Notes: a model not told the origin generated them from the letters alone. DNA of 30,295 nt from Minisyncoccia bacterium (GCA_046594495.1 JBKJSQ010000057.1:1-30295); one strand, 5' to 3'. Positions 25,374-30,295 are shown, counted from the first letter of the stretch. Numbers and translations are program-made.

Positions 25374-26522
25374 ATGAATACTGAAAGCAAAAAGGCTGCC
25401 CACTCATTTTTAAATGTGAATATAACCCGCGATTCTGAGCGCTGGGAAACGGAAATTCGCGCGGAAATTCCGGTCGAGGTGCTCACCAAGTACCGCGGAG
25501 TCGCACTCAAGGAGATGCAAAAGACCGCAAAGCTCGATGGCTTCCGTCCCGGCAAGGCACCCGAGGACCGAATTCTCGCAGTCTATGGGGAATCACAGGT
25601 ATTGCGCCGTGCAGTTGAGCACGCAATCGAGAATGAGCTCCCGCTCTTACTCGCATCTGAGAAGCTCCCTATTGTGGAAGCCCCACGAGTAACGACCGAC
25701 ACACCAACGCTCGATAAGCCGGTCACCTTTACCGCACGTGCCGCACTCGCTCCAGAAATTGCACTCGGTGACTACAAATCCGTTGCCAAGAAGCACACTG
25801 ATATCAAGGAAGATACGAGCGTCTCTGACGCTGAGCACACCGAGGCACTCACTCATTTGCGTCGCGAACGTGCGCGCATCGATCGCATCGAGTCTGGCAC
25901 AGAACCGCAAAAGGCAGCTGAGGAAACGAAGGCGCTTGCGGAAACCGACCTTCCAGAGCTCGACGACACGTTCGTGCAGACGCTCGGCTACGAGAACACT
26001 ACTGCGTTCACGACCGCACTTCGCAATAACATCCAAACCGAAAAAGAGATGCGCGCGAGCGAAAAGCGCCGCGCTGGTATCCTCGACGACATGGTGAAGG
26101 GCTCTAAGATATCCTACCCTGTTTCACTTCGCGCATTTGAACTCGACGAAATGGAGGCGCGCTTGAAGGACGACCTCTCGCGCATTGGCCAAACGATCGA
26201 GCAATACCTTGCAGAAACAAAGAAGACTCGTGAAGAGCTCCTTGCAAGCTGGAAGGATGCCGCAGATAAGCGCGCAAAAGTACGTCTTATTCTTTCAGAG
26301 ATTGCACGACAAGAAAATATAAATCCACCAGCTGCGGAGCTAGAACATGAACTCGAGCACGCGCGAGAGCACTATCCAAAAGCGGATCCCGAAAATCTCC
26401 GCGCACACATTTCGCACGCGATGCGTAACGAAATGACACTGCGCTTCCTCGAAGGAAATCCAGAGCCGGTCGGCCACACCGCTTCGAGTCACGGAGGGCA
26501 AGCCGCCCACGCTCACAAATAA
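25374..26522 (+). CDS. tig: Trigger factor lacking the FKBP/PPIase domain
   Basis: Ribosome-binding signature LDGFRPGKAP, then a short linker directly into LPELDD and the C-terminal domain; 382 aa. Confidence 0.9.
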   Translation: MNTESKKAAHSFLNVNITRDSERWETEIRAEIPVEVLTKYRGVALKEMQKTAKLDGFRPGKAPEDRILAVYGESQVLRRAVEHAIENELPLLLASEKLPIVEAPRVTTDTPTLDKPVTFTARAALAPEIALGDYKSVAKKHTDIKEDTSVSDAEHTEALTHLRRERARIDRIESGTEPQKAAEETKALAETDLPELDDTFVQTLGYENTTAFTTALRNNIQTEKEMRASEKRRAGILDDMVKGSKISYPVSLRAFELDEMEARLKDDLSRIGQTIEQYLAETKKTREELLASWKDAADKRAKVRLILSEIARQENINPPAAELEHELEHAREHYPKADPENLRAHISHAMRNEMTLRFLEGNPEPVGHTASSHGGQAAHAHK

Positions 26523-26549
26523 GAAAAGGCCCTCACGTACCATTCCTGA

Positions 26550-26673
26550 AATCCAAGGGTAACCCTTGGATTGAGCTCTAGGGTGACCTCACTTAGCGAG
26601 GGTTCCCCTCGCTATAACTCGACCAAAGTGCGCCGAAGGGCGATCTTTGCTGTTTCCAAGGGTAGTCCTTGGA
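26550..26673. repeat. Cluster of three REP-like palindromes (AGG-N5-CCT core)
   Basis: aatccaaggg-taa-cccttggatt (26550-26572), tagcgaggg-ttc-ccctcgcta (26594-26614), tccaaggg-tag-tccttgga (26655-26673). Confidence 0.65.
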
Positions 26674-26688
26674 GTAGTCACAAATAAC

Positions 26689-26714
26689 AAAACGGCACCT
26701 CGCGGTGCCGTTTT
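26689..26714. terminator. Bidirectional terminator
   Basis: aaaacggcacc-tcgc-ggtgccgtttt. Confidence 0.85.
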
Positions 26715-26736
26715 CGGTGTGCAGACACATGCGGTG

Positions 26737-27000
26737 TCAGCTTCGTTGTTTCGGCTCATAGTTTAAAAGCGCAAACGTAGTGCCCTGCCCTTTCGTTATT
26801 GCGATATGGGGGTCATCGCCATAGGCCGACGGATCACGAACGGTATGAGGCGACTCTTGTGGCGGAACGAAGGCTACCAGTCCCATATCGCCGGCAGCGA
26901 TGATGGTTGGAAGCATTTCGGCACCAAGATGAACCGGCTCTGCCGTGTCCAACAGTCGCACGAGTTCCGTGACTTGCCTGCTCGCAGTGTACGTACTCAT
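26737..27000 (-). CDS. Hypothetical protein
   Basis: TTGACA-17-CATAAT promoter (27056-27028), GGAGA SD before MSTYTAS, terminator downstream; alternative start at 27012. Confidence 0.6.
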   Translation of the reverse strand: MSTYTASRQVTELVRLLDTAEPVHLGAEMLPTIIAAGDMGLVAFVPPQESPHTVRDPSAYGDDPHIAITKGQGTTFALLNYEPKQRS

Positions 27001-27058
27001 ATCGTTCTCCATGAGTTTCCGTAAAGAATTATGTGGAGCCTGAGTACGCGTGTCAAGC

Positions 27059-27352
27059 CTAGTGCACTGTTTCCGGACCGGACTCGCCGTGCTTGGACAG
27101 CATCTCTTTATAAAAAAGTTCGATTACCTCATCGTCGCTCAACGACACCGACTCCCCGACATGCGCGTCGACTACTTTTCGCCAATCGGCTGCGTGCTCG
27201 CGAACCCAGTCCATCATAATCTCATTGCGCCCTGCGCTCACGCCCGGGTGTTCAATCTTAAACGCATGTTCGGCAACACGCGCCTGTATTTTACCGTGTT
27301 CAATAGGCAACTCTATTGGTGCATCAATACGATGCATGCGCTCCATATTCAT
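27059..27352 (-). CDS. Hypothetical protein
   Basis: ATG 7 nt after TATACT (leaderless pattern of the core genes); 97 aa. Confidence 0.6.
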   Translation of the reverse strand: MNMERMHRIDAPIELPIEHGKIQARVAEHAFKIEHPGVSAGRNEIMMDWVREHAADWRKVVDAHVGESVSLSDDEVIELFYKEMLSKHGESGPETVH

Positions 27353-27375
27353 GCGTTCAGTATACAAAATAAAAA

Positions 27376-27552
27376 CTACTCCAATTGATAATGGGAGTAG
27401 TTATAGTAGTGTCCGCCGCCATAATCAGAAGAGTCGTACGAGGCGCCGGTGGAGACAACCGACTGTTTCTTATACGCAACGCTGATGTTGAAGTCCCCGA
27501 CCATGTACAGGGCGAGCACAACTCCGACGAGGAACGAGATCACATGGGTCAT
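27376..27552 (-). CDS. Array cargo: 58-aa membrane-anchored peptide with a Tyr/Ser/Gly-rich tail
   Basis: AAGGAGG SD right after repeat R7; MTHVISFLVGVVLALYMVG...SDYGGGHYYNYSHYQLE. Confidence 0.6.
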   Translation of the reverse strand: MTHVISFLVGVVLALYMVGDFNISVAYKKQSVVSTGASYDSSDYGGGHYYNYSHYQLE

Positions 27553-27745
27553 AGGCACCTCCTTTATCAATTCGGGAACCATTCCTGAACTGAACAAAAG
27601 CCTCGATATTACGCGTCGAGGAGGCGCGTCCCTTGCGGGTGTGCTTTTTCCGGTTGCGCACAACGCGCAAACGGTAACGGTTGTCGGCAAGCGAACGCGC
27701 GGATTCGCTTCGGCGCTTCGGCGCGGGACCGGTGATCTGTTTCAT
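27470..27745 (-). CDS. Array cargo: ArfA-like basic protein; ORF reads through a terminator hairpin and repeat R7
   Basis: GAGGAGG SD after R6; SLADNRYRLRVVRNRKKHTRKGR resembles the ArfA LxDPxFRxRVxxxKK..xRK core but lacks GKGS. Confidence 0.45.
   Translation of the reverse strand: MKQITGPAPKRRSESARSLADNRYRLRVVRNRKKHTRKGRASSTRNIEAFVQFRNGSRIDKGGAYDPCDLVPRRSCARPVHGRGLQHQRCV
27567..27593 (-). repeat. Array hairpin repeat R7
   Basis: Minus strand tcagttcaggaa-tgg-ttcccgaattga. Confidence 0.8.
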
Positions 27746-27762
27746 ATAACATACCTCCTCTA

Positions 27763-27790
27763 TCAACCCGCGAACCATTTCGCGGACTGA
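27763..27790 (-). repeat. Array hairpin repeat R6
   Basis: Minus strand tcagtccgcgaa-atgg-ttcgcgggttga. Confidence 0.9.
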
Positions 27791-28218
27791 AAAGAATGGA
27801 CGATGACGCTCGTCCGGACGGATAGTAATCGGGATATCAGCCCACGCGTCAATACGCGCTGTCGACGACAAAGTCGCCGAATGAACGGCCGCTGTGGCCG
27901 CTCACATCTTCTACCGGGAGGCCCTCTATCTCCCGACAGTAGTACTTGCCGCTGCCCGGTCCGGAGGATTACTGTCCGCGCTCCAAGCTCCTTCGCTTGT
28001 CGCACGAGTGCAGCAACTTCCGGTTGCAGGCCGCGATCGCAGCAGCCGTCTTGGCAACAGTACGGCAGGCGCCGACCATTGCTGAAGCGGAGCCCGTACC
28101 GGCTCGACGAACGCTTCAGGATGTGGACGGTCTTCGCGACCACGATCGCCGTCGTGCGATCCGCAGTCAGAATGACTGCGCCGGCGGTCGAGGCGGTAGC
28201 GAAGTGAGTGTCGGTCAT
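27763..28218 (-). CDS. Array cargo: hypothetical protein with a CCQDGCC cysteine cluster; stop codon lies inside R6
   Basis: GGAGGG SD before MTDTHF; 151 aa; the C-terminal third crosses hairpin-rich sequence. Confidence 0.5.
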   Translation of the reverse strand: MTDTHFATASTAGAVILTADRTTAIVVAKTVHILKRSSSRYGLRFSNGRRLPYCCQDGCCDRGLQPEVAALVRQAKELGARTVILRTGQRQVLLSGDRGPPGRRCERPQRPFIRRLCRRQRVLTRGLISRLLSVRTSVIVHSFQSAKWFAG

Positions 28219-28262
28219 GTGGTGCCCTCCAAGAGCGATGCGCAGAATTGCGCAGAATTTTA

Positions 28263-28289
28263 TCAACCCGCGAATCATTCACGAGCTGA
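28263..28289 (-). repeat. Array hairpin repeat R5
   Basis: Minus strand tcagctcgtgaa-tga-ttcgcgggttga. Confidence 0.85.
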
Positions 28290-28323
28290 ATAAATAGGAC
28301 GAGCCGTGGCTCGTCCTGTTTGA

Positions 28324-28548
28324 TCATAAGCGGTCGAGTTCTCGCAAGGCGTCGTTGGTTTCATCTTGCCCGAAGACACGATTACTTTCTTCAACAGCCT
28401 CGCTCCACTCATCGCACTTATCATCGTATGTATAGCTCTCCGATATATACAACCAATCTTCGTAAGCCTTTTCTTGTTGTTCTTCTAAGACTGCGCGAAG
28501 AAAACTGATTGCACTATAGTTTCGCTCTACAAGGTACTTGATATCCAT
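28324..28548 (-). CDS. Array cargo: acidic 74-aa protein
   Basis: AGAGGA SD before MDIKYL; followed by a strong hairpin (28296-28317) and R5. Confidence 0.6.
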   Translation of the reverse strand: MDIKYLVERNYSAISFLRAVLEEQQEKAYEDWLYISESYTYDDKCDEWSEAVEESNRVFGQDETNDALRELDRL

Positions 28549-28620
28549 TTGTAATCCTCTGTTAGTTGCCTTCGCCACCATGATCGGATTACAAACGCGA
28601 GCAGCTCACTCCCTTTTCGA

Positions 28621-28648
28621 TCAACCCGCGAACGATTTCACGGACTGA
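28621..28648 (-). repeat. Array hairpin repeat R4
   Basis: Minus strand tcagtccgtgaa-atcg-ttcgcgggttga. Confidence 0.9.
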
Positions 28649-28698
28649 AAGGAATGGACGATGGCGCTCGTACGCACGGAGAATGCTTTCACATCCGC

Positions 28699-29289
28699 TC
28701 ACATCTCAGTGAGCAGTACTGTTGTAGGTGATATGAGTGTCGGCATCGACAACACCGGTGTCGACATACACCGCTGCTGCGAAGAGCAGTCCGCACGCCA
28801 CAGCAACACCGACGACGACACCTGCCGAAAAGAGCACAATTCTACGCATATATTTCTCCTTAAAACTCTATCAACCCGCGAACGATTTCGCGGACTGAAA
28901 AGAACGGGCGAATGGTGTTCACCCTTAGAAAGTACTTCCACGAAACCGGTGTGCCGAAACACCATGGTCTTTTTGGTAGACCCGTCCGGCTGCGACACTT
29001 CAGTGCTTTCACGTTTGGAAAACGCGTAGAGCACTTTGATGTTCGCCCGCACAAGCGCGACTTCGAGGGGCGCCATGAAATACGGTGCGCCACCGATCAT
29101 TGCAGCGCCGCAACCAGACTCCCGCGCAATGTCAGCGAGCTTAGCGGCGCGCTGAGCAAGCAGGCCGGTGCTCGGGAGCTCGTCAAACGTCAGATACATC
29201 TGGACGAGCGACTTCTTGTCGGTCTCAACCACGCCGACGGCGAGCTGATCCGCAGTCGCTTCGTGTTGAGTCAGATTCAAGATACGCAT
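28699..29289 (-). CDS. Array cargo: Csx20-like protein (about 120-aa core) with a read-through tail across R3
   Basis: ILNLTQHEATADQ...AMIGGAPYFM...LYAFSKRES..QPDGSTKKTMVFRHTGFVEV; GAGG SD after R2. Confidence 0.55.
   Translation of the reverse strand: MRILNLTQHEATADQLAVGVVETDKKSLVQMYLTFDELPSTGLLAQRAAKLADIARESGCGAAMIGGAPYFMAPLEVALVRANIKVLYAFSKRESTEVSQPDGSTKKTMVFRHTGFVEVLSKGEHHSPVLFSPRNRSRVDRVLRRNICVELCSFRQVSSSVLLWRADCSSQQRCMSTPVLSMPTLISPTTVLLTEM
28706..28849 (-). CDS. Array cargo: 47-aa single-TM peptide
   Basis: Manually translated MRRIVLFSAGVVVGVAVACGLLFAAAVYVDTGVVDADTHITYNSTAH; AAGGAGA SD right after R3. Confidence 0.6.
   Translation of the reverse strand: MRRIVLFSAGVVVGVAVACGLLFAAAVYVDTGVVDADTHITYNSTAH
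28871..28898 (-). repeat. Array hairpin repeat R3
   Basis: Minus strand tcagtccgcgaa-atcg-ttcgcgggttga. Confidence 0.9.
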
Positions 29290-29531
29290 GTGTGTATTCC
29301 TCGCTCTATCAATTCGCGAACCATTTCGCGGACTGAAGAAAGCGGGGAAGATTGGTCTTCCCCGGAATATTCGCTTGCCTCACGGCGGCGATCGGCTTTT
29401 GCACGATCGGCACGGAGGTTCTCAAGCTGGACGAAGAACTCACCCCGCGCATTGCGCTCACTGAGTACGCGCAGCGCTACGCTGTAGCCACTCTGCGCGA
29501 ACATAAGTGCGACGTGCTTGCGTGTCATCAT
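29277..29531 (-). CDS. Array cargo: hypothetical protein reading through R2
   Basis: GAGGG SD right after R1; no stop before the hairpin at 29343-29364. Confidence 0.5.
   Translation of the reverse strand: MMTRKHVALMFAQSGYSVALRVLSERNARGEFFVQLENLRADRAKADRRREASEYSGEDQSSPLSSVREMVRELIERGIHTCVS
29309..29336 (-). repeat. Array hairpin repeat R2
   Basis: Minus strand tcagtccgcgaa-atgg-ttcgcgaattga. Confidence 0.9.
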
Positions 29532-29547
29532 GTGGCATCCCTCATCT

Positions 29548-29575
29548 TCAATCCACGAACTATTTCATGGGCTGA
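29548..29575 (-). repeat. Array hairpin repeat R1
   Basis: Minus strand tcagcccatgaa-atag-ttcgtggattga. Confidence 0.85.
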
Positions 29576-29694
29576 AGAAAGGTGCGGAGTAAGGCTCCGC
29601 ACAACCTATGGTGATGTTCAGCATCTGGCCGTAATAAAACGGCAAGATTGAGAACTTCTGTTGCCAAGCGACACCACATCGCTCCGTTGCCATG

Positions 29695-29895
29695 TTAATG
29701 GAGACGGTATCCGTCGAGAGAACGCTCAAGAAACGCGAGCGCTTCGTCAGGATAACCGGACTTCTCCATGTACAAGGCGAATGCCAGGATGTCATCGTCT
29801 GACACGCTCCGACGGGGGCACTTCAGTGCAACAAACCCCCGAACGAAATCATGTGTTCCGATGACACGCCCGTCGATAGAAATAACCTGCCTCAT
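29695..29895 (-). CDS. First gene of the array region, hypothetical 66-aa protein
   Basis: GGAGGGG SD before MRQVISIDG. Confidence 0.55.
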   Translation of the reverse strand: MRQVISIDGRVIGTHDFVRGFVALKCPRRSVSDDDILAFALYMEKSGYPDEALAFLERSLDGYRLH

Positions 29896-29919
29896 GTAGT
29901 CCCCCTCCGTGAAGTTGAT

Positions 29920-30295
29920 GAAAGAACGCGAGTGCACTCATGTACACACGAAACGAAATCGCGAGAGCTGTTTGACTGATGATGCGGTCTAGAACCCGTA
30001 CCCACCTTTCAAACTTCGGGGCTGGACATCCCCATGGCGCTCTCTTCCACACTCACACCGTATCTCGCGCCGAGACACAATATGAGATTACGAAGAACGG
30101 CGTGCGCGGTAAGCATTTCGCTGACCGCCCTACCGTCCTTTTTTCTGCATCCACAGCCTTTCGGACCTGTGGAAACGAAAAGGTAGTCGTTGGCTACCCC
30201 TGACCCGGCAACGGCATGCGCCGCCCCGAGTAACCTCTTTGGAATCCGAAGATTCCTTCGCTAGCGGTAATCGCCCCAGAGTTAACCACCAAAAG
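29920..30295 (-). ncRNA. Highly structured non-coding region or long leader RNA, continuing beyond the window
   Basis: Several stems with UUCG/GAAA loops and G-U pairs that form only on the minus strand; no convincing ORF. Confidence 0.5.

What the first reader, a model, noticed from the sequence alone, without database searches (positions are those of the whole stretch)
27376..29895. Cassette-like array of small genes punctuated by seven covarying 27-28 nt hairpin repeats
Seen: seven same-orientation copies start at 27567, 27763, 28263, 28621, 28871, 29309 and 29548 (spacing 196-500 nt). On the minus strand all read TCAG-N5-GAA-(3-4 nt loop)-TTC-N5-TTGA. The ends are invariant, including a G-T pair at position 4, while the middle covaries (CCGCG/CGCGG, CCATG/CGTGG, TCAGG/CCCGA, TCGTG/CGCGG) and the wobble pairs form only on the coding strand. 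Five copies lie 14-21 nt before an SD-led ATG and the other two within 39-72 nt. Cargo is unrelated small proteins. This is not CRISPR or a canonical integron attC. Inference: either (a) RNA elements for processing, antitermination or re-initiation of a long operon, analogous to phage T7 RNase III sites or T4-type mobile regulatory cassettes, or (b) single-strand recombination sites (the 28-mers parse as 11-6-11) of an unrecognised integron-like gene-capture system. This is the best candidate for a new system in the window.
Basis: partly seen in the sequence, partly recalled or inferred. Interest (0 to 1): 0.92.

Follow-up and report, generated by a model that had tools for sequence, protein, structure and literature searches.

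The report
Intercistronic two-hairpin RNA module, CPR operon
The seven repeats are real and are the conserved half of a previously undescribed two-hairpin RNA element that sits between every gene of a small accessory operon in Kaiserbacteria-like (CPR) bacteria, most likely an mRNA processing and stabilising signal, not a gene-capture recombination site.

Summary
Observation confirmed. Seven same-strand copies exist at the stated coordinates and nowhere else in the 1.14 Mb assembly. 

The repeat is larger than described. Each unit has a sequence-variable GC hairpin (S1, terminator-like). It abuts a conserved ~46-nt element (S2): a 3-bp helix CUC:GAG, a small U-rich internal loop, an 11-12 bp helix and a variable apex. 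An SD-ATG follows. 

Both S2 helices covary strongly in 32 and 43 copies from related genomes (0/500 shuffles). About 18% of pairs are G.U, so the fold exists only on the coding strand. 

The modules lie strictly between genes of one operon. In relatives and in this genome's contig C68 it starts at a conserved sigma70 promoter with two inverted-repeat operators, downstream of a TrmB-family regulator, between clpP and tig. Cargo recurs: a g0 family, one ring-nuclease-like gene (Csx20-like or DUF1874-like), an ArfA-like gene lacking a stop codon, and small membrane proteins. 

No recombinase, Rfam match or viral-contig match was found. 

Best reading, not proven: an RNase Y/III-type processing and end-protection module, as at B. 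subtilis cggR-gapA.

The parts
29540..29585 (-). S2 copy H1 (P1 / internal loop / P2 / apex), 46-nt model span
   Evidence: CM R1/R2 hits; regex
29301..29346 (-). S2 copy H2
   Evidence: the fold shows S1 plus P1-P2, z -4.46
28863..28908 (-). S2 copy H3
28613..28658 (-). S2 copy H4
28255..28299 (-). S2 copy H5 (27-nt core)
27755..27800 (-). S2 copy H6
27559..27603 (-). S2 copy H7 (27-nt core)
29582..29602 (-). S1 hairpin before H1 (variable, terminator-like)
29343..29364 (-). S1 hairpin before H2; lies inside the run-on ORF of gene 1
28906..28924 (-). S1 hairpin before H3; lies inside the run-on ORF of the Csx20-like gene
28656..28673 (-). S1 hairpin before H4. Degenerate paralogue of the H6 S1 (87% identical 69-nt unit); coordinates approximate
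   Evidence: family D1; read from the sequence
28296..28317 (-). S1 hairpin before H5
27798..27815 (-). S1 hairpin before H6
27601..27621 (-). S1 hairpin before H7. Lies inside the ArfA-like ORF directly after its conserved core
29695..29895 (-). g0: first gene of the array, 66 aa, no S2 upstream. Family of 114 representative clusters of 60-75 aa; three strands plus one TPR/PPR-like helical hairpin
29277..29531 (-). gene 1 (84-aa ORF; runs through S1 and H2; no homologs found in the arrays compared)
28699..29289 (-). gene 2, Csx20-like. The conserved part is 28900-29289; the ORF runs on through S1 and H3
   Evidence: NCBIfam NF040559 E 6e-6, 26.7 bits, below the 70-bit cut-off; orthologs in L066, L071, L085
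28706..28849 (-). gene 3, 47-aa predicted membrane peptide
28324..28548 (-). gene 4, 74-aa acidic protein
27763..28218 (-). gene 5, frameshifted relative to its 122-aa ortholog in G111
27470..27745 (-). gene 6, ArfA-like. The core is 27608-27745; there is no stop before S1 or H7
27376..27552 (-). gene 7, 58-aa membrane peptide; last gene, no module after it
29896..30295 (-). 3' part of the long non-coding leader between the operon promoter (on contig C68) and g0

Best explanation
The repeats are the conserved half of a two-hairpin intercistronic RNA module.

Structure: each module is S1, a sequence-variable GC-rich hairpin followed by a pyrimidine-rich tract. S1 abuts S2, which consists of P1 (3 bp, CUC:GAG), a conserved U-rich internal loop (5' U-N-U, 3' U-N), P2 (11-12 bp) and a variable apex. 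S2 ends 0-30 nt before the Shine-Dalgarno sequence of the next gene.

Setting: the modules separate the cistrons of one operon. That operon is transcribed from a single conserved sigma70 promoter with two TGTCA-N8-TGACA operators, downstream of a TrmB-family regulator gene, between clpP and tig. It is found in an order of Parcubacteria (relatives are named Kaiserbacteria, Adlerbacteria and Paceibacterota).

Inferred mechanism:
- The primary transcript is partly terminated at S1 and/or cut in the U-rich tract or internal loop by a host endonuclease. RNase Y and RNase III are both encoded.
- S1 then caps the 3' end of the upstream cistron. For the ArfA-like gene this would produce its non-stop mRNA.
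- P2 caps the 5' end of the downstream cistron against RNase J.
- Each small gene would thereby acquire its own stability and expression level.

Shown: the structure, its strand specificity, its intercistronic position, the single promoter, the conserved locus and the RNase repertoire.
Inferred: cleavage, the enzyme responsible, and the stabilising effect.
For: Repeats and structure:
- Seven copies, all in this array and nowhere else in the genome.
- P2: 95.3% of cells paired on 32 copies, 6 pairs with double changes, 0/500 shuffles, slid controls 29-47%.
- P2 on 43 partly independent copies: 94.6% paired, 39 doubly changed cells.
- About 18% of cells are G.U or U.G, so the opposite strand cannot form the helix.
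- P1: 95.8% and 95.3% paired. Pair types are CG, UA, UG and AU. 0/500 shuffles reach the covariation score.
- Apical insertions of 10-45 nt are tolerated. This rules out a fixed-spacing promoter.
- S1 is present in 45/45 analysed units and ends 0-1 nt before P1. Five of the seven window S1 hairpins score as terminator-like.
- Whole units fold as S1 plus P1-P2, with z from -2.3 to -4.5.

Position and context:
- All 43 hits in 36 TrmB1 loci are co-oriented with TrmB1, and 42 lie 0.9-4.8 kb downstream of it.
- 12 of 13 loci with the clpP/TrmB1 arrangement and enough downstream sequence carry the modules.
- The modules occur only between genes, never before the first or after the last.
- A conserved TTGACA-16/17-TATACT promoter with flanking inverted repeats is present in 15 loci. 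In this genome it is at C68 8653-8680. No sigma70-like promoter lies in the intergenic spacers of the array; the one weak (9/12) match in that span is inside gene 1.
- The genome encodes RNase III, RNase Y and RNase J. RNase E/G was not found.

Precedents:
- RNase Y cleavage is guided by a downstream duplex (PMC5449607).
- At cggR-gapA and glnR-glnA, a bulged downstream hairpin protects the product from RNase J1, and an AU-rich tract 3' of the hairpin is brought next to the cut (bioRxiv 10.1101/2023.03.12.532304).
- Intergenic stem-loops act as cleavage signals and end stabilisers in the cip-cel operon (PMC10311766).
- arfA and brfA are expressed from hairpin- or terminator-truncated non-stop mRNAs (PMC8012679).
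Against: - No RNA data. Only low-coverage soil-metagenome DNA contigs hold this sequence, so no 5' or 3' ends have been seen.
- S1 and P1 are adjacent, so little single-stranded linker is available for RNase Y. The cut would have to fall in the 3-nt internal loop or within S1.
- The combined P1+P2 helix (about 15 bp) is short for a classical RNase III site unless S1 stacks on it.
- Sequence conservation of P1 and the internal loop is more than a generic stabiliser hairpin needs. It hints at a specific partner.
- A boxA-like motif follows S2 in 13 of 68 units. The processing model does not explain this.
Confidence: 0.5

Rival explanations
1. RNA operator for a dedicated trans-acting protein. 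S2 would be bound by a locus-encoded or host protein that co-ordinately represses or activates translation of every internal cistron. This would resemble Aca1/Aca2 binding to hairpins in anti-CRISPR mRNAs.
For: - P1 and the internal loop are conserved in sequence while P2 and the apex vary. That is the typical signature of a protein-recognition site.
- S2 ends a few nucleotides before the SD.
- The Aca1 RNA motif has the same layout: a 3-bp conserved lower stem, up to 2 unpaired bases and a covarying upper stem. csx20 and AcrIII-1 homologs are Aca-regulated cargo (PMC13551039).
- An HTH regulator (TrmB1) is always encoded upstream on the same strand.
- P2 is homogeneous within a genome but differs between genomes.
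Against: - The promoter operators (TGTCA-N8-TGACA) do not resemble S2, so TrmB1 is unlikely to read both.
- The first gene of the operon lacks S2.
- No RNA-binding domain was recognised in any cargo protein. g0 has no significant structural match.
- An outer helix that would sequester the SD was tested and rejected, p 0.44.
Confidence: 0.2
2. nut-like processive antitermination site. S2 would act as a boxB-like hairpin, with a boxA-like element in some units, that re-arms RNA polymerase after each S1 terminator. One promoter could then express the whole array.
For: - There is a single promoter but a terminator-like S1 before every internal gene.
- A boxA-like motif (for example GTTCTTTGAAAA, CGCTCTTTAACAA) lies 0-10 nt after S2 in 13/68 units, against 2.4% of background windows, p 7e-9.
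- The S1-S2 linker itself reads CUCUUUA-like.
- That boxA accompanies a hairpin in rrn and lambda nut sites is my own knowledge, not tested here.
Against: - Only about one fifth of units carry the motif, and none of the window's seven does so clearly.
- This genome's own 16S leader shows no recognisable boxA for calibration, and the same motif precedes an SD at an unrelated gene.
- Known antitermination systems need one or two sites per operon, not one per gene.
- The linker nucleotides are base-paired in P1.
Confidence: 0.12
3. Single-strand DNA recombination site of an integron-like gene-capture system. S2 would fold in ssDNA and be recombined, moving cassettes in and out of the array.
For: - The repeats bound small ORFs in one orientation. 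The base of the stem is conserved while the apex varies in length, as in attC.
- Gene order and content differ between genomes.
- One homology block between L088 and L069 ends about 15 nt inside S2.
- G.T pairs can also form in DNA.
Against: - No recombinase lies within 6-10 kb of about 20 arrays. The flanks are rny, clpP, TrmB1, tig and nusA.
- The only PF00589 gene in this genome is on contig C130.
- The array sits at one fixed chromosomal slot and draws on a small recurrent gene pool.
- S2 occurs nowhere else in the genome.
- There are no R''/R' core sites and no extrahelical bases, and the element is 46 nt where attC is 57-141 nt.
- No joints were seen in the DNA contigs that could be laid, though that evidence is weak.
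- Breakpoints at 45-nt direct repeats are expected from ordinary homologous recombination.
- An indel of one gene (the TM76 protein in G111 against the window) is not bounded by a second S2.
Confidence: 0.05
4. Small self-cleaving ribozyme. S1 plus the P1-loop-P2 element would cut itself in or near the conserved internal loop.
For: The element is compact and conserved, with an invariant small internal loop flanked by covarying helices. It is repeated between genes, as some small ribozymes are.
Against: There is no similarity to any Rfam ribozyme family, even at permissive thresholds. Very few nucleotides are invariant and unpaired, and no tertiary pairing is evident.
Confidence: 0.04
5. DNA-level element: a promoter or a palindromic operator in front of each gene.
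For: Each S2 follows a terminator-like hairpin and precedes a gene. TTCAG...TTGATA sit 17-19 bp apart in most copies.
Against: - The putative boxes covary with each other (TCAG/TTGA against TGAG/TTCA), and spacing ranges from 17 to more than 60 bp.
- The SD starts 0-10 nt after the putative -10, so the transcripts would lack it.
- G.U asymmetry marks one strand only.
- Stem sequences differ among copies within one genome, with compensation.
- The genome uses canonical TTGACA/TATAAT promoters.
Confidence: 0.03

Closest known systems
RNase Y processing sites with a downstream stabilising hairpin (B. subtilis cggR-gapA and glnR-glnA; S. aureus saeP-saeQ)
   Same: - Intercistronic position in an operon.
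- A U/A-rich tract immediately 5' of a bulged or interrupted hairpin.
- A purine/AU-rich tract just 3' of the hairpin, brought next to the 5' tract.
- An organism with RNase Y and RNase J and without RNase E.
   Different: - Here the element is a conserved sequence-and-structure family repeated between every cistron.
- It is fused to an upstream terminator-like hairpin with no linker.
- Cleavage has not been observed.
Phage T7 early-region RNase III sites (R0.3 to R1.3); comparison from my own knowledge
   Same: Repeated, same-strand, interrupted hairpins between successive small genes of one long transcript. An internal loop separates an upper and a lower stem.
   Different: - T7 sites have roughly 10 bp on each side of the loop. 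Here the lower stem is 3 bp and the total is about 15 bp.
- The setting is chromosomal and lineage-conserved, not a phage.
- RNase III dependence is untested.
Selective RNA processing and stabilisation stem-loops of the Ruminiclostridium cip-cel operon (PMC10311766)
   Same: Stem-loops in successive intergenic regions act as cleavage signals and protect both ends of the processed cistrons, which sets their stoichiometry.
   Different: The cip-cel stem-loops are not a single conserved motif family. Here all modules are homologous and have a conserved internal loop.
Aca1/Aca2 RNA motifs in anti-CRISPR operon 5' UTRs (PMC13551039)
   Same: - Small hairpin with a 3-bp conserved lower stem, 1-2 unpaired bases and a covarying upper stem, upstream of a start codon.
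- An HTH regulator is encoded alongside.
- Ring-nuclease (csx20, AcrIII-1-type) cargo.
   Different: - Aca motifs sit directly after the transcription start and resemble the regulator's DNA operator. S2 is internal to the operon and unlike the promoter operators.
- The +1 inverted repeat of this operon is the closer analogue of an Aca site.
Integron attC sites
   Same: Same-orientation imperfect palindromes between small ORFs, with a conserved base and a variable apex.
   Different: - No integrase, no attI and no RYYYAAC/GTTRRRY cores.
- Shorter, and without extrahelical bases.
- The folding strand is the coding strand.
- Fixed locus with semi-conserved content.
arfA/brfA internal hairpin or terminator
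   Same: S1 lies inside the ArfA-like ORF directly after its conserved core, and there is no stop codon before it. This is the same arrangement that makes arfA and brfA mRNAs non-stop (PMC8012679).
   Different: - Homology to ArfA is marginal (E 0.24-0.6 against PDB ArfA chains, no Pfam hit).
- Here the hairpin is one instance of a module used between all genes of the operon.

Membership tests
Integron (attC array) | Adjacent integron integrase (tyrosine recombinase) with attI and Pc | tested here: not met
   The flanks of about 20 arrays hold rny, clpP, TrmB1, tig and nusA only. The single PF00589 hit in this genome is on contig C130.
Integron (attC array) | R''/R' core sites RYYYAAC ... GTTRRRY at the stem base | tested here: not met
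   The stem base is UCAG/YUGA, covarying to UGAG/UUCA. The outer helix is CUC/GAG.
Integron (attC array) | 57-141 nt imperfect palindrome with an unpaired central spacer and extrahelical bases, folding on the bottom strand | tested here: not met
   The element is 46 nt with a 3x2 internal loop and no conserved extrahelical base. The G.U pairs place the fold on the coding strand.
CRISPR array | Short direct repeats separated by 25-50 nt non-coding spacers; cas genes or a leader | tested here: not met
   The intervals are 196-500 nt and contain SD-led ORFs. No cas genes are in the window or flanks.
Any Rfam 15 family | Score at or above the family's gathering threshold | tested here: not met
   No hit in the window at gathering thresholds. 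Only chance-level hits at E up to 5 in 26500-30295. None in relatives other than tRNAs.
Intrinsic terminator (for S1) | GC-rich hairpin followed by a U-rich tract | tested here: met
   Five of the seven S1 hairpins pass the terminator scan. In total 11 sites were found against 3.9 expected in the region. The tract is C-interrupted (CUCUUUU) and doubles as P1 and the internal loop. Actual termination was not tested.
RNase III site of T7 type | About 20 bp of duplex with an internal loop, cleaved by RNase III | tested here: inconclusive
   P1+P2 is about 15 bp, reaching 21-27 bp only if S1 stacks coaxially. RNase III is encoded. Cleavage is not testable here.
RNase Y processing site with 5' stabiliser hairpin | Endonucleolytic 5' end just upstream of a hairpin; RNase Y- and RNase J-dependent product levels | not testable with these tools
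   The geometry fits and both enzymes are encoded. No RNA reads are available.
Aca-type RNA operator | Hairpin directly downstream of the transcription start of the operon, resembling the regulator's DNA operator | tested here: not met
   S2 lies 1-4 kb downstream of the promoter and between genes. The promoter operators read TGTCA-N8-TGACA, unlike S2.
nut / rrn antitermination site | boxA sequence next to a boxB hairpin | tested here: inconclusive
   A boxA-like motif follows 13/68 units, p 7e-9. It is absent from most units, and this genome has no recognisable reference boxA.
ArfA (gene 6) | Significant sequence match to the ArfA family | tested here: inconclusive
   No Pfam or NCBIfam hit at E up to 1. 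The family profile's only coherent PDB hits are six ArfA chains, in register over the functional core, at E 0.24-0.62.
ArfA (gene 6) | ORF interrupted by a hairpin or terminator before any stop codon (non-stop mRNA design) | tested here: met
   There is no stop before S1 in the window or in the L066, L068, L077, L085, L088, L019 and L013 orthologs.
Csx20 ring nuclease (gene 2) | Score above the NCBIfam NF040559 cut-off | tested here: not met
   26.7 bits against a 70-bit cut-off, E 6e-6, C-terminal 38 residues only. Csx20-like, membership not established.

The most novel reading that the evidence does not exclude
The module could be the signature of a dedicated post-transcriptional control system specific to this CPR lineage. 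A specific factor, protein or RNA, would recognise the conserved P1/internal-loop of S2 and cut or remodel the transcript at every cistron boundary. This would generate defined monocistronic RNAs, including deliberately non-stop mRNAs for the ArfA-like and some Csx20-like genes. Expression of a ribosome-rescue factor and a cyclic-oligoadenylate ring nuclease would then be coupled to the state of trans-translation and ClpP proteolysis. An even more radical reading, S2 as a recombinase-independent or trans-encoded gene-capture site, is not strictly excluded.
Probability: 0.15. Interest if true: 0.8.

Novelty: new variant of a known kind. Interest (0 to 1): 0.55.

Why it matters
- Almost nothing is known about gene regulation or RNA metabolism in CPR/Patescibacteria, which cannot be grown alone.
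- This is a well-defined structured RNA motif, strongly supported by covariation and absent from Rfam. It marks a conserved, regulated accessory operon in one Parcubacteria order.
- It gives a concrete handle on how these reduced genomes set the stoichiometry of small accessory genes.
- The cargo is itself notable for CPR: one ring-nuclease-like gene per array (Csx20-like or DUF1874/AcrIII-1-like), and an ArfA-like gene with the classic non-stop design far outside the proteobacteria where ArfA is known.
- If the module proves to be a compact, portable cleavage and insulation signal, it could also serve as a synthetic-biology part for operon design.

Tried and rejected
1. **Phage or prophage origin.** The window's large ORFs are cellular: ComEC, RecJ, PGK, PilB/C, NusA, Tig. 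A degenerate S2 pattern found nothing in the viral contig collection.
2. **RNA gene at the contig end.** No tRNA or tmRNA, and no Rfam hit.
3. **Strain variants or RNA ends from reads.** Only three soil-metagenome DNA runs hold the stretch, as short low-depth contigs. There were no joints and no RNA, so this was uninformative.
4. **Lower-stem extension tested by duplex energy of 11-nt flanks.** Not significant (p 0.12). The test was too blunt. The column-wise test then showed a real 3-bp P1. Positions 3-4 with 61-62 do not pair consistently.
5. **Outer helix pairing sequence 5' of S1 with the SD (three-way junction).** It appeared in the minimum-energy folds of all four window units. It is not systematic: own -7.81 against cross -7.77 kcal/mol, p 0.44. 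Rejected.
6. **General 'non-stop regulon'.** 39 of 58 upstream ORFs stop normally before S1. Run-on ORFs are mostly the ArfA-like family and two Csx20-like genes. Rejected as a general property.
7. **sigma54, ECF, K-turn, hammerhead and group II domain V resemblances.** Checked by eye against consensus sequences recalled from memory. None fits. Not pursued.
8. **g0 as a nuclease or RNA-binding partner.** AlphaFold2 model pLDDT 84.6, no Foldseek PDB match below E 1. The protein atlas gave only unnamed clusters at score 0.70. No conclusion.
9. **Locus search with the ArfA-like alignment.** The TrmB1 alignment was used instead.
10. **G020 SecD match to the strict pattern.** A chance hit inside a coding sequence.

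Full report
**1. The observation.**

The window is the whole of contig C71 of a 1.14 Mb, 51% GC, 164-contig assembly. Its large ORFs are cellular: ComEC, RecJ, PGK, PilB/PilC, NusA and trigger factor.

A strict regex for TCAG-N5-GAA-N3-4-TTC-N5-TTGA finds exactly seven matches in the whole genome. All are on the minus strand, at 27567, 27763, 28263, 28621, 28871, 29309 and 29548. A one-mismatch search for the 28-nt form gives 5 hits against 0.01 expected. The distances to the next SD-led ATG are 14-21 nt for five copies, and 44 and 72 nt for the other two.

**2. The repeat unit is larger than 28 nt.**

Each copy is directly preceded by a GC-rich hairpin of unrelated sequence followed by a pyrimidine-rich tract. 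Five of the seven pass a terminator scan. I call this hairpin S1 and the conserved element S2.

In 45 of 45 units analysed across genomes, an S1 hairpin ends 0-1 nt before the conserved element.

**3. Homologs and structure.**

A covariance model built from the seven copies plus one relative finds arrays of 1-4 copies in 13 of 115 genomes of the same genus.

A second model gives this distribution:

| Group searched | Genomes with a hit |
|---|---|
| Rest of the order | 9 of 150, in at least 8 families |
| Rest of the class | 1 of 150 |
| Rest of the phylum | 0 of 150 |

The phylum result also shows that the model is specific. Relatives are named Candidatus Kaiserbacteria, Adlerbacteria, Paceibacterota and Nomurabacteria.

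The 11-12 bp helix (P2):
- On 32 copies it is 95.3% paired. Six pairs show compensatory double changes, and 0 of 500 column shuffles reach the observed values. Slid-register controls give 29-47%.
- On 43 copies from 36 TrmB1 loci it is 94.6% paired, with 39 doubly changed cells.
- The 'invariant' stem base covaries: pair 2 is CG 26, GC 11, UA 3, UG 2.
- About 18% of all cells are G.U or U.G. The helix can therefore form only on the coding strand.

The conserved flanks are part of the fold. Model positions 5-7 (CUC) pair with GAG two nucleotides after P2.
- 95.8% of cells pair on alignment A3 and 95.3% on A7.
- Pair types include CG, UA, UG and AU.
- 0 of 500 shuffles reach the covariation score.

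S2 is therefore P1 (3 bp), an asymmetric U-rich internal loop (5' U-N-U, 3' U-N), P2, and an apex. The apex tolerates insertions of 10-45 nt. Whole units fold as S1 plus P1-P2, with z-scores from -2.3 to -4.5.

**4. Genomic setting.**

In long contigs of relatives the order is rny, clpP, TrmB-family HTH (TrmB1, opposite strand to clpP), about 1.3 kb without ORFs, the array, then tig, nusA and pilB. In this genome, contig C68 ends with rny, clpP, TrmB1 and 784 nt of non-coding sequence. It evidently abuts the window's end.

In 36 TrmB1 loci, all 43 S2 hits are on the TrmB1 strand and 42 lie 0.9-4.8 kb downstream of it. Of 13 loci with the clpP/TrmB1 arrangement and enough downstream sequence, 12 carry S2.

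About 430-500 nt after TrmB1, every locus has a canonical promoter: TTGACA, 16-17 nt, then TATACT or TATAAT. It is bracketed by two inverted repeats, TGTCA-N8-TGACA. One overlaps the -35 and the other lies at about +1. In this genome they are at C68 8641-8703.

No sigma70-like promoter lies in the intergenic spacers of the array; the one weak (9/12) match in that span falls inside gene 1. The array therefore looks like one operon with a 0.7-0.9 kb non-coding leader. Window 29896-30295 is the 3' part of that leader.

The S1-S2 modules occur only between genes. The first gene has none upstream and the last has none downstream.

**5. Cargo.**

The genes are small, but they are not random.
- **g0 family** (66-73 aa). 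Often the first gene. It forms 114 representative clusters in the 1.84-billion-protein library. The AlphaFold2 model has three strands plus one TPR/PPR-like helical hairpin and no significant PDB match.
- **Ring-nuclease-like gene.** Nine arrays carry exactly one, and never both kinds.
  - Csx20-like: the window, L066, L071 and L085. NCBIfam NF040559 gives E 6e-6, below the cut-off.
  - STIV B116/DUF1874-like: L067, L069, L075, L088 and L093. For the L055 protein, Pfam gives 4e-8 and PHROG 5063 gives 6.5e-16.
  - Csx20 is a characterised ring nuclease, and csx20 and AcrIII-1 homologs are known counter-defence cargo (bioRxiv 10.1101/2024.09.24.614671; PMC13551039).
- **ArfA-like family.** A basic ~45-aa core. 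Its profile's only coherent PDB hits are six ArfA chains, aligned in register over the functional core, but only at E 0.24-0.62. Pfam and NCBIfam give nothing. In nearly every genome the ORF has no stop codon before S1. This is the arrangement by which arfA and brfA are expressed from non-stop mRNAs (PMC8012679).
- **Small membrane peptides** make up much of the rest.

Gene 5 of the window is frameshifted relative to its ortholog. Order and content vary between genomes. Between L088 and L069, one homology block ends about 15 nt inside S2.

**6. Mechanism.**

A promoter or DNA operator is excluded for four reasons.
- The supposed boxes covary with each other.
- Their spacing ranges from 17 to more than 60 bp.
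- The SD would fall outside the transcript.
- The G.U asymmetry marks one strand only.

An integron-like recombination site is unlikely.
- No recombinase lies near any array.
- The genome's only tyrosine recombinase is on contig C130.
- The locus is fixed and the gene pool small.
- attC core sites are absent.
- Breakpoints at 45-nt direct repeats need only homologous recombination.

The remaining readings act at the RNA level. The genome encodes RNase III, RNase Y and RNase J but not RNase E/G. That is the Bacillus-type decay machinery.

In that setting three points are established:
- RNase Y cleavage is guided by a nearby downstream duplex (PMC5449607).
- At cggR-gapA and glnR-glnA, a bulged hairpin immediately downstream of the cut protects the product from RNase J1, and an AU-rich tract 3' of the hairpin is brought next to the cut site (bioRxiv 10.1101/2023.03.12.532304).
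- Intergenic stem-loops serve as both cleavage signals and end stabilisers in the cip-cel operon (PMC10311766).

The S1-S2 module has this geometry. I therefore favour partial termination and/or endonucleolytic cutting at the S1/S2 boundary. S1 would cap the upstream 3' end, making the ArfA-like mRNA non-stop. P2 would cap the downstream 5' end.

This is inference. No RNA data exist for this organism: the only runs holding the sequence are low-depth soil-metagenome DNA.

**7. Rivals.**

- *A specific RNA-binding regulator.* Sequence conservation of P1 and the internal loop suggests a specific partner. The Aca1 RNA motif has the same layout of lower stem, gap and upper stem, and is found with similar cargo. 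However, S2 is unlike the promoter operators and is absent from the first gene.
- *nut-like antitermination.* A boxA-like motif follows S2 at a fixed offset in 13 of 68 units (p 7e-9). That keeps this reading alive. However, the motif is a minority feature, and the genome's own rRNA leader offers no reference boxA.
- *A self-cleaving ribozyme* cannot be excluded, but nothing positive supports it.

**8. Tests that failed or were negative.**

- An SD-sequestering outer helix, seen in the folds of the window's units, is not systematic (p 0.44).
- The missing-stop feature is confined to a few families: 39 of 58 upstream ORFs stop normally.
- A first, energy-based test of the lower stem was negative. 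The column-wise test then succeeded.

**9. Verdict.**

The finding is real and the structure is well supported. It is a new RNA motif, with no Rfam family, of a functionally familiar kind: an intercistronic processing, stability or regulatory hairpin. It sits in a conserved, regulated accessory operon of CPR bacteria.

It is not CRISPR, not an integron, and probably not a gene-capture system. Interest is moderate to good.

Noticed in passing
window 27470-27745 (-); orthologs L040 9635-9766, L041 10088-10222, L042 10488-10625, L043 6249-6392, L044 1336-1467: ArfA-like basic peptide family in CPR. Its profile's only coherent PDB hits are ArfA chains, in register over the core but only at E 0.24-0.62. 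The ORF lacks a stop codon before the S1 hairpin in nearly all genomes, as in arfA and brfA. ArfA is otherwise known from proteobacteria.
   Followed up: partly
window 28900-29289 (-); L055 9680-9994; L042 9356-9697; survey of L066-L101: Nine arrays carry exactly one ring-nuclease-like gene, either Csx20-like or STIV B116/DUF1874 (AcrIII-1 family)-like, and never both. This suggests functional interchangeability. Whether these genomes have type III CRISPR or other cyclic-oligoadenylate signalling was not checked.
   Followed up: partly
own genome contig C68 8641-8703 (outside the window); aligned in 15 related loci: Highly conserved sigma70 promoter (TTGACA-16/17-TATACT) bracketed by two inverted repeats, TGTCA-N8-TGACA, one over the -35 and one at about +1. 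This is probably the operator pair of the adjacent TrmB-family regulator. The +1 repeat would also form a 5'-terminal RNA hairpin.
   Followed up: partly
window 29896-30295 (-) plus C68 8704-8998: A 0.7-0.9 kb leader lies between the promoter and the first array gene. It has no credible ORF, is conserved at nucleotide level (both-strand translations hit equally) and has no Rfam match. It may be a large regulatory leader or a non-coding RNA.
   Followed up: partly
L023, L047, L048, L049, L051, L053, L054, L066, L067, L071, L093 units: A boxA-like motif (GTTCTTTGAAAA, CGCTCTTTAACAA and variants) lies 0-10 nt after S2 in 13 of 68 units, against 2.4% of background windows. It is not clearly present in the window's own units.
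   Followed up: partly
window 27763-28218 (-): Gene 5 carries a frameshift near codon 95 relative to its intact 122-aa ortholog in G111 (L044 1822-2187). It is either a pseudogene or an assembly error.
   Followed up: yes
window 27028-27056 (-), 26737-27000 (-), 26689-26714: Just after the array there is an 11/12-match sigma70 promoter, an 87-aa ORF of unknown function, and a strong bidirectional terminator shared with tig. This is a separate small transcription unit.
   Followed up: no
L088 7754-8928 against L069 7707-8220: The same genes occur in a different order in two related arrays: g0 | X | B116 | Y against B116 | X g0 | Y. One homology block ends about 15 nt inside S2. This is consistent with recombination between the repeats.
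   Followed up: partly
G227 contigs C14 and C17 (L064 9970-10035, L065 9563-9628); G221 C2 and C6; G254 C8: In some other families of the order, S2-like elements occur at loci that are not the clpP-tig slot. They include two identical copies on different contigs, one followed by a 317-aa ORF without Pfam hits.
   Followed up: no
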